A DNA stretch of 64,000 nt, from the NCBI GenBank assembly GCA_000002435.2, contig CM018793.1, one strand, 5' to 3'. Shown here piece after piece: positions 54,001 to 63,000 of this stretch. Origin of the DNA: Giardia intestinalis. Its lineage: Eukaryota. Made by a program: the position numbers. Each line of letters begins with the position of its first letter. Position 1 is the first letter of the stretch.

Positions 54001-57000
54001 GGGGGCATCGGGTGACTGGCTCGGACCCATCCGGCAGGCCTCGTCCGTGCCTGTTCCTGACCTAACAACTTGCTGCCCGCTGCAGGTGCTGAGAGCAACC
54101 CATCTCTAGGGCCTCCGCCCTCTCATACAACAGTCCATTCGGGGATGCCCCCGTGTCCATCACTCTGTGCTGGCTGGCACACGTCTGTGGCCGGGATGTC
54201 TATTTTCCCCAAGAGCTAGCATAGGCGGGAGACATCTTTAGAGGGCCTGCTCCTCTTAGAAATAGTGATCCCGTACACCGACTCACCGTGTAGTCAGAGA
54301 GGCCATAATGGGGCGGGTTTGCCTGTGTGGCTCCGGATCAGATCACAATTAGTTCGAGACAATATTCAGATCCATGAACTGTGATGGTGACCGATGAGCG
54401 ATGAATATTAAATAGATAATAGAAGAGCTTAGTAGTAGATACAATCAAGTAGCACCTAACCATTATGTATATTAGCAGCTTTATTAAGACAACCAACCAG
54501 ACGGAAAGAGACTAACCAATCAGCGAACACAGAACTTACAACATGACACCGACCATACATGCCTTGCTTTAAAGTAAACTATACAATAAACTTATTAGCT
54601 TTACAGTCCGATAACATGGGATAGAGCTAAGACCTTTTCGGAAGGGAGAATCCAGGTCTCTGCCTCAAGACGCTCGTCGATGGTCACCTCAGCCCAGTTG
54701 AGATAAAGAAGTTGAGGGAGGATATAGATCAGTAGCGCTCTAATGGTATTTGCTGGGGTAGGGAGTGTGGCCACGGCATTCTTCCTGTATTGTTCAAATA
54801 GACTTTTGTTTGCGCTCGGGGCATCTGCATACGGATCAACTGTTCTATTGACTCCCACAGCAAATGAGACCTCGTCCTGGCGGGCCATCAAGTCCCCTAG
54901 TGCTAAGATCCGTGCGTCCTTAAGTGTCACGGCCACGTGGAGCCCGTCATTGTCTGGACGCTTAAATCGTCTTCCATTAGTAAACTCTTTTTGAGAGGGC
55001 GATAACGTATCGTCAGATGTCACAACAAGTTCCCTCAGTAGCTTGAAGGGAATGAGCTTCTTTATGCAGGAAAGTTGATTAATGCAATTCGCGTGGAGGA
55101 GGAGTGTTCTGAGATTGGGGTTTTGTAACGGTGCTAGGTGTTCAATAGAAGTGATTCTGTTATGGCTAAGGTTGCAGTATCGAAGACTTGGGAAGCGGTC
55201 TATATGTGCATCGCTAGTTAAAATGTTATGAGCAGCATCGAGCCAAAACACGTTGGGACAACAATTATTGCCTTTGAGAGATGAAATGACGTTTCGAGAA
55301 ATGTCTAAACGCTCCAGGTATGGGAGAGCATCTCCAGAGACCTCTGACGGAAACTCAAACAATTTGTTACGGCTCAAGTCCAGGTTAACTAGATTAGGAC
55401 AGAAGCGAAGAGATGGAAGCTCTTCAAGATCATTGCACGAGAGAGTTAACGTAAGTAACAGGGGGCAAACAGGGAGCATGTGCCACTCGACCTGTGCATC
55501 ATTCAGCCCGCAGTTCGAAAGGTTCAGCTCAGTAAGATGTGGCAGGGAGAAAAGATCCGTTACATCTGCAGAACTCAGTCTCCGTCCAGCGACAGAGAGG
55601 CGCTCTACAAAAGAAAACTGGCTATATATCTCCGAAATGGCGAAATCAGGCACTGATGAACAATCCAGCGATCGTGTAATGTACGTGGCTCCGTCCGCAG
55701 AGGGCCCAAAGTGCCCCAGTAAAGGGACCACGTCTAGGATGGTCGGGGGCATAGGAATTTTAAGGAAGTTCACTAGGCTAGTGTCTTATCTCTGAAAGTC
55801 CATGCAGCTGGTTGCGGAGTGAATTCTTGTTTGTCCATTCTCGGGTATATACCTCCTCGGTAGTGTTTAGCTCAGCTTCCTTGAGGCTTTTCTCGCGCTT
55901 AAACATGTAGCTCATCATAGCTGCACGTGCCTCATCATCTGCTTTGCGCGGCACAACTGTGTTTGATCGACTTGGTATGACCTTTAGCACTGCATTTGCT
56001 CCGCACTTGATGCTACTCATAGCAGGCCCCTTAGAGCACAAAGAAGACCCTGCAAAGAAAAGGCAGCTAGTCTCCGTGCTATAATACTTCTGGGGCTCTA
56101 CCTTTCCTTCTAGGATGTCCTCCTCTGCATCCAGAAGCTCTTTGGCTGGATCGTAGTCGGGAAGACCCATTGGCCAGACCATCATCAGTGCCCCCTTTGC
56201 TATGGCGATCGCCTCTTTGACAACTTCCTCTGTCACAGGGTTTCGCTGGGATGGTAGTGTATAACAAACTCGACGTATTTCAGCCGCGACATCCGTCAGG
56301 GTCTTCTTGCCCGTTTCGTCAGGAGCATGACCCGTTCGCAGGTTGTAGGCATCGACGCTTGGGCCAAGGGGCTCTTCACCTTCCTGCTGGCCTGTCAATG
56401 CTTTGTACTCAGGAGCCCGCAGGGGTCCGTGCTTCGCTAGATCCTCCAGGGGATCAACCAAGGATGACAAAAAGATCAGACTATTCAGGAGGCGGATTCC
56501 TCGGTTGTTTACATCCTCTGTGCTTTCGGCCTTGTCGCATTCGAAGTAGAATGCGAGCTTTGTGTCGGTAGGAGCCACATTGATCAACATTTAATTTAGA
56601 TTTCCATTAGGCCATAATGCCGAAGAGGGTAGCCATACGGTGCACTTGCAGCCTCGCAGAATAAGTTGCGAAGAACTGCAGGCAGGGACTGAACACTGAA
56701 CCGTTCTTCGTCACCAGACGCAAAAACAAGTAGATCTGCTTGAATTGTCGCCCAGATCATCTCACAGGCAAACGATGGATACGTATAGACGTCCCACTGA
56801 ACCTTGCTGTGTGAGTATGAGTACGCCCGTGGACCAGGCTTGATGGTGAAGAGCCTCTTCAGCTTTTTCTCCATAAGCGTTGTTCTCCATTGCCGCTTGT
56901 CTCCTTGATCTATGTATACTTCTGTGAGTTGCTCATATACTACGGTTTCTGCCTCAGATAAAGTAGAGGGGAGAGAGTCGCCAATGGATAAGCACTGAAT

Positions 57001-60000: not shown

Positions 60001-63000
60001 TGTCGGACACCGCCTTGTGGAGCTGGCACCACCTCTGGAGCCCACTTTGGAAGATCTCTTATAGCGTTCTCCCGCTCGAGCCAAAAGTCCGTATGTCACG
60101 GAGAGACAGAGACTCAAGACGAGCGACGTCACGAGCGACCATATCCTTCTTGGAAACTGACTAAACACGACTGCCACAACCAGGGGGATAAGATTTATGA
60201 GAGATGCGATAGCATAGACTGCACCACCAAAATTGCCCGTACTTCTGATGGTGATCCCAAAGAGTAAGTGGTCCAGAAACTTTTGGCAAAAGAGTGCCCC
60301 GCTGCCTTCATCGAAGACAGGGTAATTTCCGGCCATTTTTAGATTGACACACAGTACCTATACGTCCTCATAGACTATTTACTCGTCAGTTCTGGTTTGA
60401 TAAAAGACTCCTACGCTTGATAAGAGCTATAGAAGGGAGAACGATGTGGGACTGAGAGGCTTTGGATCGGAGTGACTCAGCCCTGGTAAAGAGTGTGAAC
60501 GTACCAGTAGAGCGTTAAGAGATCGTGACCTCCTTGATTATCTTGCAATCTATTGCTTCCTTCAGCATAACACGGTAGTTGAATGTGATCCTGTTGAGAT
60601 AATAATGCTTAACTCCCCCGTTGGTCTCGCTGACCAGACAGCCAAGCTGCTGCATGGCGTTTAGAATGTCTGTGGCCGTAGTTACATTGACGTGGATCAT
60701 CTCAATGATCCTGTGGACACTTACACACGGATGTTTAATAGGTCGACGGTTTCGCACCCTATTGTACTCGTTATATAAAATTAGTATGACATATAAGTAG
60801 AACATCTTGTATGAACGAACCTCCTTAGTAACCAAGTATCTGTGGCCATTGAGGGTCCATGGCACGTAGGGAAATGCATCATGTCCTCGTGTACGCCTTT
60901 CGTTCTCGATATAGTCGAAAATACCATTTAGCTCTGTGACATGGACAGGGTTATTGGGTCGAGACCGATTAATAAGAGCAAATACCTCGTCTACTGGCAG
61001 AAAGACGCACTGCAAAATGCGCTGCTGTATGTAGAGCGGCGAAAGGGCGACATAATACTCAATAGCACTCATGAGCTCAGTCACAAACGCGTCCTTGTCA
61101 CTGACAGGCGAGGCAACCGAGGATGGCCTGATTGATAGAAAGGCATGCAAAACATCAGAAAGCTCAATGGCAAGGTCAAAGGGCTGCGTCCTATTAAATA
61201 TGACAACCTGTGCATAAGACTGACAGAGCTTCTCATCGTTATACAGCTTAAATACGGTGATCCCTCCCCCGGTCCCGTTAGCGCTGCTAGGCAGCTCCTT
61301 GACGGGGGTAGGAGAGACAAAGTTGGGGGGTGCAAGAGACACTGTGTCTTTTGCAGTCATTGCTAACGTGTCTCTTGTCATAGCAGTCTCATGCAGAAGC
61401 GTTTTTGCAGCCTTGATCCCATCTTCGTACTTCTTCGTATGCAGATATCGAGAGCTCTCTTTCTTGAATGCGTCTTGCTCCACCCAGTGCTCAGCCAACT
61501 TGATCAGTTTGGTGTATATTTCTTTATTTCTGATGCTGGTAATATTAAATCTGAAGTCTTTAGGAAGGTCGATTTCCCTCAGGATTTGGCTGTACCGCTC
61601 ACGAAGGGGGTTTAGTATACAAGCAGACCTTACGTCCTCTACAGAATCGCGGCTACTGGTCTGATAGGCCGGCATAAGCTTGGCCTCTAAGTCCTGAAAG
61701 TCTTCTGCGGGCGTTCTTGGAAGCTTTTCGCCCTTTTTGGGTTGGCCAAACACAAGCGTAAGTGAATTAGAGGCATTATCGTTTGCCAAATCGTTGTACT
61801 TACTGTCAGTGTTACAAACAATCACGACCGCGTTGTCGCTCACCCGTTTACCGTTGACCTTTGTACCTTTCTTTCGGAACTCTATGCCATTCACTCGCTT
61901 AAGTGGAAGCCTAAGCGAATAGGGAGGAGATCTAGAGTAAACATAAAGGTAACACCTGGAGAGCAAAAGGTAGGCGTTATGGGTGAAGTAGGAATGCCCG
62001 TTGGGCTCGTCAATTATACTGACTGGATTGATGGAGGAGTAAGTGGAGCGAGACACCTCCTCGGGAGAGCCGTCGTACTTATGTTTAACGACATCAAATG
62101 CCTTCATCTTTTTTCTACATCGGGTCACCAAGCGTTTTACTTAAATTAACTGTATCTTACAATTGGGATGAGCGCAGAAGGGTGCTAGAAAGGCTTCGCA
62201 ACTTGTAATGTCTAACGCTGTGTACAGCGACTTGACACTCGGTGAAGTTAAAAGTTAACGCGAGGGCAGTCCGACCAATGACTATACACTATGCCCCAGA
62301 GTCCATGCGGCTGTCTACCAGTGTGATAGACGTTCGAGAATATCTACCCCCGGCTAGGGTCTATGCTCCTGTCAGTCGGAATATGGGTGTTACCACAGAG
62401 GCTCAAAGCAATCACAGGTGCGAAACCCCCCGCACACACCCCTGGTACATCGGAGCAGATGGTAGGGCTATAGAAGAAGGCCTTCTATGCTTCTTAAAGT
62501 CCACTGTGCGGATTAAGAAGGAAGCAAGCCTACCTGTGGCTAACTCTGTCAACCTGCTGGAGCACAGGGGCACCTTTGATAGCATTGATTCTGTCGAACC
62601 ACCCTATTCTAATACTGCTCTTAACGAGTTTCATCGGAAACTCACCAGTGCTAAAGGGGCTGAGATCAGGGTTGCGGCGCCGCAGCCCCGCATATATTCA
62701 GCACATTCTCGCTCTAGCATGATACCGTACACTATCAGTAGACCGTGTGCTCTATCTATTGCGTCGAGGGCCAAGCTGCAGCAGACGGCCGCTATCTCCC
62801 CCGTTGAAGACGATATCAGTCTTTCCGACTTTACAGTACCTCACAACTCCTCAAGCCATAGCAATTTCACGACTGAATTGAACCCCTACAGCGTGTCTAA
62901 GCAGAGAGCCGAAACTGTCTGCAGCGCCCTCAACTTAACAGCGACCAGTCTGCCCCGGAGGTCGAACGTAGACCTCGTTAGATCTAAGGCTGCGGCGTCA

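What the first reader, a model, noticed from the sequence alone, without database searches (positions are those of the whole stretch)
54601..60336. Three same-strand genes separated by only 4-5 bp (LRR protein, CFAP298, 1246-aa polytopic membrane protein)
The stop of the large membrane protein (56596) is 5 bp from the CFAP298 start (56590). The CFAP298 stop (55778) is 4 bp from the LRR-protein start (55773). Promoters for the downstream genes must therefore lie inside upstream coding sequence, or transcripts must be read through or processed. CFAP298 is a conserved ciliary dynein-arm assembly factor. An SDS22/LRRcap-type LRR protein immediately downstream may be a functional partner, given the recurrent involvement of LRR/LRRcap proteins in dynein assembly. 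This link is inferred.
Basis: partly seen in the sequence, partly recalled or inferred. Interest (0 to 1): 0.5.

Follow-up and report, generated by a model that had tools for sequence, protein, structure and literature searches.

The report
Tightly packed Giardia gene trio
Three neighbouring Giardia intestinalis genes (a pecanex-like membrane protein, the dynein-assembly factor CFAP298 and a leucine-rich-repeat protein) sit 5 and 25 bases apart, which is normal for this very compact genome, and nothing shows that they work together.

Summary
The window is Giardia intestinalis WB. All three proteins match annotated WB genes exactly: GL50803_25205, GL50803_15834 and GL50803_12800. The 5-nt gap between the membrane-protein stop and the CFAP298 ATG is real. 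It is identical in five G. intestinalis lineages. The 4-bp gap is an artefact. Its GTG lies inside the CFAP298 poly(A) signal AGTGAAC. The real LRR start is the ATG at 55752, so the spacer is 25 nt (21-44 nt in other lineages). Published poly(A)-tag data place the CFAP298 mRNA end 16 nt after its stop, inside that spacer and 9 nt before the LRR ATG. CFAP298 and LRR are therefore separate transcripts.

Such spacing is ordinary for Giardia. The median intergenic distance is 81 bp, 5' UTRs are 1-14 nt, and the core promoter is an 11-nt AT-rich initiator at the ATG. Poly(A) signals lie at or next to stop codons. CFAP298 identity is firm, and the membrane protein is probably a divergent pecanex.

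The LRR protein gives only generic LRR matches. It has no CS domain and no specific similarity to a named LRR protein, including known dynein-assembly LRR factors. It is not next to CFAP298 in three more distant relatives. The proposed functional link is unsupported but not excluded. Interest is low.

The parts
56596..60336 (-). GL50803_25205: a 1246-aa polytopic membrane protein, probably a divergent pecanex-family member (CDS including the TAA stop).
   Evidence: Exact match to XP_001705283.1/KAE8305992.1. Twelve hydrophobic 19-aa segments lie in residues 40-546. Pecanex_C (PF05041) matches residues 1191-1238 at E 1.7e-5 and 24.8 bits, below the gathering score of 27. Three orthologues match the same profile region at 23.7-25 bits. 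There is no sequence relative in the PDB.
56588..56609 (-). 22-nt junction TAATGGAAATC-TAA-ATTAA-ATG. It holds the last codons and stop of the pecanex-like gene, the 5-nt spacer and the CFAP298 start codon, and contains an AT-rich initiator-like element (TAAATTAAATG).
   Evidence: Identical in all five G. intestinalis-complex lineages. In the same lineages only about 25% of conserved degenerate codons are unchanged gene-wide. It resembles the published TSS-seq consensus variants such as AAATTAAAATG (PMC3792122). The promoter role is inferred, not shown.
55778..56590 (-). GL50803_15834: a 270-aa CFAP298/DNAAF16/FBB18 orthologue (CDS including the TAG stop).
   Evidence: Exact match to XP_001705285.1. 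Pfam CFAP298 scores 34.8 bits against a gathering score of 27. PDB 9k9m_A 'Flagellar associated protein' matches at E 4.4e-16 over residues 14-186. End-to-end homologues of about 270-295 aa occur across eukaryotes. A profile search returns many proteins named CFAP298.
55768..55774 (-). AGTGAAC, the poly(A) signal of the CFAP298 gene.
   Evidence: AGUGAA is the commonest Giardia poly(A) signal (PMC3610916). AGTGAAC or AGTAAAC is present at this junction in all five lineages.
55758..55762 (-). Mapped poly(A) cleavage zone of the CFAP298 mRNA. The 3' UTR is 16 nt. The genomic AAAA that follows makes the exact site ambiguous by up to 4 nt.
   Evidence: Franzen et al. 2013 Table S1 gives a 3' UTR of 16 nt in WB, AS175 and P15. 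Converted to window coordinates.
55756..55763 (-). TTAAAATT, an initiator-like AT-rich core 3 nt upstream of the LRR ATG. It sits inside the 25-nt spacer (55753-55777).
   Evidence: TTAAAAT is conserved in four of five lineages, and the B-like lineage has TCTAAAAT. It matches the AT-rich TSS consensus class. The function is inferred.
54601..55752 (-). GL50803_12800: a 383-aa leucine-rich-repeat protein (CDS from the ATG, including the TAA stop). Its mapped 3' UTR is 7 nt.
   Evidence: Exact match to XP_001705286.1. Pfam LRR_8 and LRR_4 match; LRR_9 scores below its gathering score. The AF2 model is a confident LRR solenoid only for residues 15-200. The 3' UTR is.
60337..60383 (-). Upstream region of the pecanex-like gene. 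It holds the initiator-like CAATCTAAAA directly before the ATG, and an AGTAAAT heptamer at 60377-60383 that is probably the poly(A) signal of the upstream 530-aa gene.
   Evidence: The region is conserved in the A, E and B-like lineages.

Best explanation
These are three independently transcribed, monocistronic genes of Giardia intestinalis, packed at the short end of the species' normal intergenic range.

**Start signals.** Each gene carries a minimal AT-rich initiator-type core promoter directly at its ATG. Transcription starts a few nucleotides upstream, because Giardia 5' UTRs are 1-14 nt.

**End signals.** Each mRNA is ended by a poly(A) signal at or just after its stop codon. With so little space, the end signals of one gene and the start signals of the next are interleaved.

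**CFAP298/LRR junction (shown).** The order is stop, 3 nt, AGTGAAC, cleavage at +16, TTAAAATT, then the LRR ATG at +26. The two mRNAs abut without sharing a transcript.

**Pecanex-like/CFAP298 junction (inferred).** The upstream TAA stop is part of the initiator-like element TAAATTAAATG. The upstream mRNA must therefore end inside the CFAP298 coding region or read through it. CFAP298 mRNA starts at the junction.

**Meaning of the adjacency.** It reflects genome compaction and local synteny within the G. intestinalis species complex, not a functional unit.
For: **Identity**
- All three proteins match G. intestinalis WB proteins exactly.

**Sequence anatomy**
- Both junctions were read directly.
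- The spacer lengths, poly(A) signals and AT-rich cores are conserved across five lineages.

**Direct experimental data from the literature**
- The CFAP298 3' UTR is 16 nt in three isolates and the LRR 3' UTR is 7 nt (PMC3610916 Table S1).
- The CFAP298:LRR FPKM ratio varies from 1.4 to 4.4 among four isolates (109/79, 139/95, 78/18, 384/95). This argues against a single shared transcript.

**Species norms**
- 5' UTRs are 1-14 nt. AGUGAA lies about 10 nt before the cleavage site. 81% of tail-to-tail gene pairs overlap in transcription. 31% of poly(A) clusters lie in sense inside ORFs.
- The median intergenic distance is 81 bp.
- Promoters are about 60 nt, and 30-177 bp is called the typical intergenic range.
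- An 11-nt AT-rich TSS consensus is the only motif found within 150 nt of start sites.

**This window**
- Other short same-strand gaps are 34 and 36 nt. One of them has AGTAAAT overlapping the stop codon.
- Synonymous sites in the last 60 codons of the pecanex-like gene are not unusually conserved (0.18-0.35 against a mean of 0.25). Only the last roughly 16 nt are invariant, which fits a very small core promoter.
Against: - No TSS data were obtained for any of the three genes.
- No poly(A) or FPKM data were obtained for GL50803_25205. The held supplement is truncated at WB FPKM 38.55.
- No AGTRAAY occurs on the minus strand between the pecanex-like stop and the CFAP298 poly(A) signal. Read-through of the upstream transcript across the whole of CFAP298 therefore cannot be excluded.
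- The strict invariance of the 5-nt spacer in five lineages could also reflect something more than a core promoter.
Confidence: 0.85

Rival explanations
1. Operon-like expression. The pecanex-like gene and CFAP298 are co-transcribed as a bicistronic mRNA. CFAP298 is translated by termination-reinitiation across the invariant 5-nt spacer.
For: - The 5-nt spacer and flanking 22 nt are identical in five lineages.
- No canonical AGTRAAY signal lies between the upstream stop and the CFAP298 poly(A) signal.
- Franzen et al. mention read-through of upstream ORFs as one explanation for poly(A) sites found in sense inside ORFs.
Against: - The junction carries a good match to the AT-rich TSS consensus directly at the CFAP298 ATG, as at other genes in the window.
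- Polycistronic expression is not mentioned in either transcriptome paper read (0 occurrences).
- CFAP298 has WB FPKM 109. GL50803_25205 is absent from the held four-way-orthologue rows, which stop at FPKM 38.55. If it is on that sheet, it is at least 2.8-fold less abundant. This step is conditional.
- UAAA-containing signals overlapping the stop codon are common. About 47% of poly(A) sites lack a prominent motif.
Confidence: 0.05
2. Functional gene pair. The LRR protein is a Giardia-specific partner of CFAP298 in axonemal dynein pre-assembly, and the adjacency is maintained for co-regulation.
For: - Chlamydomonas FBB18/CFAP298 binds the LRR assembly factors ODA7/DNAAF1 and LRRC6/DNAAF11 directly (PMC9455862).
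- The pair is adjacent in all five G. intestinalis-complex lineages.
- Both genes are expressed at similar moderate levels in WB.
Against: - Outside Giardia the LRR protein matches only generic LRR proteins: PIRL, LRRC40, LRRC32, LGR4 and designed LRRs.
- No CS domain, which DNAAF11 has, was found.
- No LRR homologue lies within 8-10 kb of CFAP298 in a Giardia-like relative (L001), another diplomonad-like contig (L002) or Kipferlia (L003/L004).
- Synteny among close assemblages is expected by descent alone.
- The expression ratio varies threefold among isolates.
Confidence: 0.07
3. Annotation artefact. The ORFs are fragments of one gene split by a frameshift or by stop-codon read-through.
For: Only the very small gaps suggest this.
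Against: - CFAP298 aligns from its own Met1 to its last residue with stand-alone proteins of 270-295 aa across eukaryotes.
- All stops and starts are conserved in five lineages.
- A poly(A) site is mapped between CFAP298 and LRR.
Confidence: 0.01

Closest known systems
Typical short head-to-tail gene junctions in Giardia, e.g. alpha-2-tubulin/ORF 10868 with a 30-bp intergenic region (Teodorovic et al. 2007, PMC1885649)
   Same: Same-strand neighbours lie tens of bases apart. Transcription starts in an AT-rich element next to the ATG, giving a 5' UTR of about 3 nt. Promoter elements reach into or abut the upstream gene.
   Different: Here one spacer is only 5 nt, so the upstream stop codon itself lies inside the initiator-like element. 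No 5'-RACE data exist for these genes in what I could read.
Giardia muris genome compaction (Xu et al. 2020, PMC7641422)
   Same: The poly(A) signal overlaps or abuts the stop codon, and the general promoter motif lies directly next to the start codon. The median intergenic size is 37 bp, and 9.5% of genes overlap.
   Different: That is a different species. G. intestinalis is somewhat less compact (median 81 bp), so 5 nt is nearer the tail of its distribution.
Overlapping transcripts in other compacted eukaryotic genomes (microsporidia, nucleomorphs). This comparison rests on my own knowledge, not on a test here.
   Same: When intergenic space shrinks, transcripts run into neighbouring genes without a functional operon.
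   Different: Giardia keeps a recognisable initiator and poly(A) signal at almost every gene, and 3' ends here are mapped within the spacer.
CFAP298/DNAAF16/FBB18 and its LRR partners DNAAF1 (ODA7) and DNAAF11 (LRRC6) (PMC9455862, PMC12633730)
   Same: The middle gene is a true CFAP298 orthologue. In Chlamydomonas this protein binds two LRR-containing assembly factors.
   Different: The Giardia neighbour shows no specific similarity to any named LRR protein and has no CS domain. In those model organisms the partnership has nothing to do with gene adjacency.
Kinetoplastid polycistronic units and nematode operons (from my own knowledge)
   Same: Closely spaced same-strand genes.
   Different: Those systems resolve polycistrons by trans-splicing. 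Here a poly(A) site is mapped between two of the genes and each ATG has its own initiator-like element.

Membership tests
CFAP298 / DNAAF16 / FBB18 (Pfam PF11069) | C-terminal CFAP298 (DUF2870) domain above Pfam's gathering score | tested here: met
   34.8 bits against a cut-off of 27, E 2.2e-8, residues 216-268.
CFAP298 / DNAAF16 / FBB18 (Pfam PF11069) | N-terminal and central region homologous to the solved flagellar-associated-protein structure, with end-to-end collinearity to family members of about 290 aa | tested here: met
   PDB 9k9m_A matches at E 4.4e-16 over residues 14-186. There are 192 homologues, mostly 270-300 aa and aligned over residues 1-269. A profile search returns 451 hits at E<=1e-10, many named CFAP298.
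CFAP298 / DNAAF16 / FBB18 (Pfam PF11069) | [quoted passage not shown] | not testable with these tools
   Inferred from orthology only. No paper in the searched library names this Giardia gene.
Pecanex (PCNX) | Pecanex_C domain (PF05041) at the C-terminus | tested here: inconclusive
   24.8 bits against a gathering score of 27, and only profile positions 166-213 of 228. The same sub-threshold match appears in three orthologues.
Pecanex (PCNX) | Large N-terminal multi-pass membrane region | tested here: met
   Twelve Kyte-Doolittle segments scoring >=1.6 lie within residues 40-546. This is a crude method.
DNAAF11 / LRRC6 | LRR domain followed by a CS (p23-like) domain | tested here: not met
   Pfam finds only LRR families and no CS domain at E<=0.01. 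The domain definition is from PMC12633730.
DNAAF1 / ODA7 / LRRC50 and DNAAF12 / LRRC56 | Specific sequence orthology: best hits are family members | tested here: inconclusive
   The best non-Giardia hits are PIRL and LRRC40 proteins. The PDB holds no structure of these factors. The afdb50 fold library was unavailable. No family member appeared among the hits, but the searches were of limited sensitivity.
SDS22-like LRR with LRRcap | 22-residue SDS22-class repeats and a C-terminal LRRcap motif | tested here: inconclusive
   LRR_9 scores 28.9 bits against a cut-off of 30.5 and covers only profile positions 57-122. SDS22 (PPP1R7) matches at E 3e-6, weaker than typical-class LRRs at about 1e-12. 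By eye, a cap-like motif (RALLIYILPQLLYLNWAEVTIDER) lies about 70 aa after the last repeat. The C-terminal fragment has no PDB hit at E<=10, and the AF2 model is unreliable there.
Eukaryotic operon / polycistronic unit | Neighbouring genes share one primary transcript | tested here: not met
   For CFAP298 to LRR, the published poly(A) site at +16 lies inside the spacer in three isolates. For pecanex-like to CFAP298 this could not be tested, because data for GL50803_25205 are not in the held text.
Conserved gene cluster (synteny beyond the species complex) | Adjacency retained in distant relatives | tested here: not met
   The adjacency is retained in five G. intestinalis-complex lineages. tblastn at E<=0.1 to 10 finds no LRR or pecanex-like homologue within 8-10 kb of CFAP298 in L001 (44% identical CFAP298), L002 (39%) or Kipferlia.

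The most novel reading that the evidence does not exclude
The absolutely conserved 5-nt spacer could mark a real bicistronic pecanex-like/CFAP298 mRNA in which CFAP298 is translated by termination-reinitiation. Alternatively, the Giardia-restricted LRR protein could be a lineage-specific partner of CFAP298 that stands in for a canonical LRR dynein-assembly factor. Neither reading is excluded by the data I could reach.
Probability: 0.08. Interest if true: 0.5.

Novelty: already known. Interest (0 to 1): 0.1.

Why it matters
It matters little beyond annotation.

- **Worked example.** It shows how Giardia interleaves stop codon, poly(A) signal, cleavage site, initiator and start codon within 5-25 nt.
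- **Caution on ORF calling.** Bacterial-code ORF rules create false starts and false overlaps in eukaryotic sequence.
- **Annotation gains.** GL50803_15834, annotated as a hypothetical protein, is a clear CFAP298/DNAAF16 orthologue. GL50803_25205 is probably a divergent pecanex.
- **If a rival held.** If the bicistronic or partner hypotheses were true, they would be of moderate interest for Giardia gene expression or flagellar biology.

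Tried and rejected
- **Named G. muris or Spironucleus orthologues.** The word-indexed protein search found only G. intestinalis-complex relatives for LRR and CFAP298. The profile search returned no named G. muris entry among the best 120 hits listed. Synteny was therefore tested on unnamed Logan contigs and on Kipferlia.
- **LRR structure.** The AF2 model from a five-sequence alignment has a mean pLDDT of 54, and the C-terminal half is below 50. 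Foldseek against the PDB gave only generic LRR hits. The afdb50 library was not available.
- **LRRcap test.** The C-terminal 83 aa searched against the PDB gave no hit.
- **Gene-specific literature.** No paper mentions the three gene identifiers.
- **Supplementary tables.**
  - The TSS-seq supplements do not list the genes.
  - The Franzen table is truncated before GL50803_25205.
  - The encystation tables hold only CFAP298, or none of the three genes, so co-expression could not be tested.
- **Extended promoter inside the upstream coding sequence.** Rejected. Synonymous sites in the last 60 codons of the pecanex-like gene are not more conserved than average.
- **Structured RNAs or tRNAs in 51000-64000.** None found.
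- **RNA structure at the pecanex-like 5' end.** The WB sequence folds with z = -3.67. Orthologues do not, with z of -0.5 to -0.8, and only one pair is compensatory. Not supported.

Full report
**Source and gene identities**

The three predicted proteins are exact matches to Giardia intestinalis WB (ATCC 50803) entries.
- The LRR protein is XP_001705286.1/KAE8305990.1, orthologue group 12800, 383 aa.
- The middle protein is GL50803_0015834, XP_001705285.1, 270 aa.
- The large protein is GL50803_0025205, XP_001705283.1, 1246 aa.

In the 2020 re-annotation the three accessions are consecutive, so nothing is annotated between them. A VSP-family ORF next door fits the organism.

**Check of the observation**

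On the minus strand the large ORF ends ...ATGGAAATC TAA (stop 56598-56596). The spacer ATTAA follows, then the ATG of the middle gene at 56590. The 5-nt gap is real.

The middle gene ends ...AGACAC TAG (55780-55778), followed by CCTAGTGAACTTCCTTAAAATTCCT and then ATG at 55752. Only the bacterial-code ORF rule treats it as a start (one search lists it as a GTG start).

Several lines show that the ATG at 55752 is the real start.
- GenBank annotates 383 aa from the ATG.
- The four orthologues aligned begin at that Met.
- In P15 the triplet is GTA. In the B-like lineage an in-frame TAA lies two codons upstream of the ATG.
- Franzen et al. list the gene as CH991767:376741-377892, 26 nt after the end of GL50803_15834 at 376715.

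The second gap is therefore 25 nt, not 4.

**Is the spacing unusual?**

Long ATG-ORFs in this window give these same-strand gaps: 5, 25, 34, 36, 85, 88, 90, 90, 145, 178, 179, 203, 264, 320, 517 and 525 nt. Convergent gaps of 8, 11 and -14 nt also occur.

Published figures agree.
- The mean/median intergenic size is 470/81 bp in G. intestinalis and 264/37 bp in G. muris. In G. muris 9.5% of genes overlap (PMC7641422).
- Teodorovic et al.-177 bp 'a typical range' and describe promoters of about 60 nt (PMC1885649).

The two gaps lie in the short tail of a normal distribution.

**Anatomy and conservation of the junctions**

I retrieved the locus from four other lineages of the G. intestinalis complex.
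- L008 is P15 (assemblage E), NCBI ACVC01000159.
- L005 comes from SRR3177763. Its 21-nt spacer equals that of assemblage B isolate GS, computed from Franzen's coordinates.
- L006 and L007 come from two further runs.

Gene order and orientation are the same in all. The upstream spacer is always 5 nt. The 22 nt TAATGGAAATC-TAA-ATTAA-ATG are identical in all five lineages. By contrast, only about 25% of conserved degenerate codons are unchanged gene-wide.

The downstream spacer is 25, 25, 21, 44 and 44 nt. In every lineage it contains AGTGAAC or AGTAAAC, then 10-19 nt later the ATG. A TTAAAAT-type core lies between them.

Synonymous sites in the last 60 codons of the large gene are not more conserved than average (0.18-0.35 against a mean of 0.25, SD 0.13). 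Any constraint from a downstream promoter therefore reaches only about 16 nt into the coding sequence.

**Experimental data from the literature**

Franzen et al. 2013 (PMC3610916) mapped poly(A) tags genome-wide. Their Table S1 gives the following.

| Gene | FPKM in WB / AS175 / P15 / GS | 3' UTR |
|---|---|---|
| GL50803_15834 (CFAP298) | 109 / 139 / 78 / 384 | 16 nt in WB, AS175 and P15 |
| GL50803_12800 (LRR) | 79 / 95 / 18 / 95 | 7 nt in WB |

Sixteen nucleotides after the TAG is ...CCTAGTGAACTTCCTT|AAAATTCCTATG. Cleavage therefore falls inside the spacer, 5-9 nt before the LRR ATG and right at the AT-rich core. The CFAP298 and LRR mRNAs are separate molecules that abut.

The same paper states several species norms.
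- 5' UTRs are 1-14 nt.
- AGUGAA is the commonest poly(A) signal and lies about 10 nt before the cleavage site.
- 81% of tail-to-tail gene pairs overlap in transcription.
- 31% of poly(A) clusters lie in sense inside ORFs. Read-through from an upstream ORF is offered as one explanation.

Tolba et al. 2013 (PMC3792122) found an 11-nt AT-rich consensus at transcription start sites, with variants such as AAATTAAAATG and ATTTTAAAATG. No other motif was found within 150 nt. The sequences before the three ATGs here are TAAATTAAATG, CCTTAAAATTCCTATG and CAATCTAAAAATG. They are of this kind, as are many others in the window.

**What remains inferred**

I could not obtain TSS data for any of the three genes, or any data for GL50803_25205. 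The held copy of Table S1 stops at WB FPKM 38.55 and the TSS-seq supplements do not list the genes.

On the minus strand no AGTRAAY lies between the stop of the large gene and the CFAP298 signal at 55768-55774. The large gene's mRNA therefore has two possible fates.
- It uses a UAAA-type signal overlapping its stop (TCTAAATTAAAT) and is cleaved within the first codons of CFAP298.
- It reads through to the CFAP298 site.

Either way CFAP298 most probably has its own start at the junction. If GL50803_25205 is on the four-way-orthologue sheet, its FPKM is below 38.55, against 109 for CFAP298.

**Protein identities**

*CFAP298.*
- Pfam PF11069 scores above its gathering score.
- PDB 9k9m 'Flagellar associated protein' matches at E 4.4e-16 over residues 14-186. 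This may be the DNAAF16 crystal structure cited in PMC12633730, but I did not verify that.
- An exhaustive HMMER search gave 192 homologues, mostly 270-300 aa and collinear from residue 1 to 269. Hits include Kipferlia 'DUF2870', Dysnectes and Chilomastix.
- A profile search returned 451 hits at E<=1e-10, many named 'cilia- and flagella-associated protein 298'.

*Large protein.*
- About 12 hydrophobic segments lie in residues 40-546.
- A sub-threshold Pecanex_C match at the extreme C-terminus is reproduced in three orthologues.
- It has no sequence relative in the PDB.

It is probably a divergent pecanex.

*LRR protein.*
- Pfam finds LRR_8 and LRR_4. LRR_9 scores below its threshold.
- Non-Giardia sequence hits are generic: PIRL and LRRC40 at E>=2e-12.
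- PDB sequence hits are LRRC32, LGR4, designed LRRs, Roco, FAP246 and LRRC23 at 5e-9, and SDS22 at 3e-6.
- The AF2 model is confident only for residues 15-200, and its PDB fold neighbours are generic.
- The C-terminal 140 aa are the best-conserved part among lineages. By eye they contain an LRRcap-like motif, but no tool confirmed it.

**The proposed CFAP298-LRR link**

The idea has precedent. Chlamydomonas FBB18 binds ODA7/DNAAF1 and LRRC6/DNAAF11 directly (PMC9455862).

I could not show that the Giardia protein belongs to either family. It lacks the CS domain that defines DNAAF11.

Adjacency within five closely related lineages is expected by descent. I therefore looked at three more distant relatives.
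- L001 is a Giardia-like contig with a CFAP298 44% identical to the WB protein.
- L002 is another diplomonad-like contig (39% identity).
- L003/L004 are from Kipferlia.

In none of them does an LRR or pecanex-like homologue lie within 8-10 kb of CFAP298.

The CFAP298:LRR expression ratio ranges from 1.4 to 4.4 among four isolates. Encystation tables in the held text contain only CFAP298, so co-expression could not be tested. The link is unsupported but not refuted.

**Verdict**

This is ordinary gene packing in a compact protist genome, and one of the two reported gaps is an artefact. The mechanism has two parts.
- Shown: separate CFAP298 and LRR mRNAs, with the 3' end mapped inside the spacer.
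- Inferred: an initiator at the 5-nt junction, and an upstream mRNA that ends within or beyond CFAP298.

The arrangement is of an already known kind. Interest is low.

Noticed in passing
window 60250-60336 (-), the first ~85 nt of the GL50803_25205 coding sequence: Strong synonymous-site conservation at the 5' end of the pecanex-like gene. In the first 20 codons, 12 of 16 conserved degenerate codons are identical in four lineages (0.75), against a gene-wide 0.25 (SD of 20-codon windows 0.13). The ~85 nt after the ATG are nearly invariant. The WB sense RNA folds unusually well (z = -3.67), but orthologues do not, and covariation is almost absent. The cause is unknown. The 5' ends of CFAP298 and LRR show nothing similar.
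   Followed up: partly
window 52922-53956 (+); GC 0.606 in 52001-54000; compare L008 8504-11725: A truncated VSP-family ORF of 344 aa matches Pfam VSP profile positions 78-282 of 397 and lacks the C-terminal part. It lies in a GC-rich block convergent with the LRR gene. In P15 the equivalent position holds a full-length 1073-aa VSP-family gene in the opposite relative orientation. Synteny between assemblages therefore breaks right after the LRR gene.
   Followed up: partly
window 55778-56590 and 56596-60336: GenBank/UniProt names for both genes are 'hypothetical/uncharacterized protein'. GL50803_15834 is a clear CFAP298/DNAAF16 orthologue, and GL50803_25205 looks like a divergent pecanex.
   Followed up: yes
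window 36254-36267; 17948-17957; 24393-24413: Other extreme packing occurs in the same window. Two convergent ORFs overlap by 14 nt. Other convergent gaps are 8 and 11 nt. At 24393-24413, AGTAAAC on the plus strand and AGTGAAC on the minus strand face each other within 21 nt.
   Followed up: no
window 22902-22908 (-) and 21589-23812: A second same-strand pair has a 34-nt spacer in which AGTAAAT overlaps the upstream stop codon. This is the same design as at the CFAP298/LRR junction.
   Followed up: no
L002 10001-10813: The CFAP298 homologue on this unnamed Logan contig (39% identical) was called as two ORFs of 216 and 47 aa. tblastn nevertheless aligns residues 1-269 continuously across them. 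Many neighbouring calls are also short fragments. This suggests an in-frame stop read as sense (a variant genetic code) or assembly errors. The organism was not identified.
   Followed up: no
window 60377-60383 (-): An AGTAAAT heptamer lies 132 nt downstream of the stop of the 530-aa gene (60515-62107) and 41 nt upstream of the pecanex-like ATG. It is conserved in the A, E and B-like lineages and is probably the upstream gene's poly(A) signal, placed next to the next promoter.
   Followed up: no
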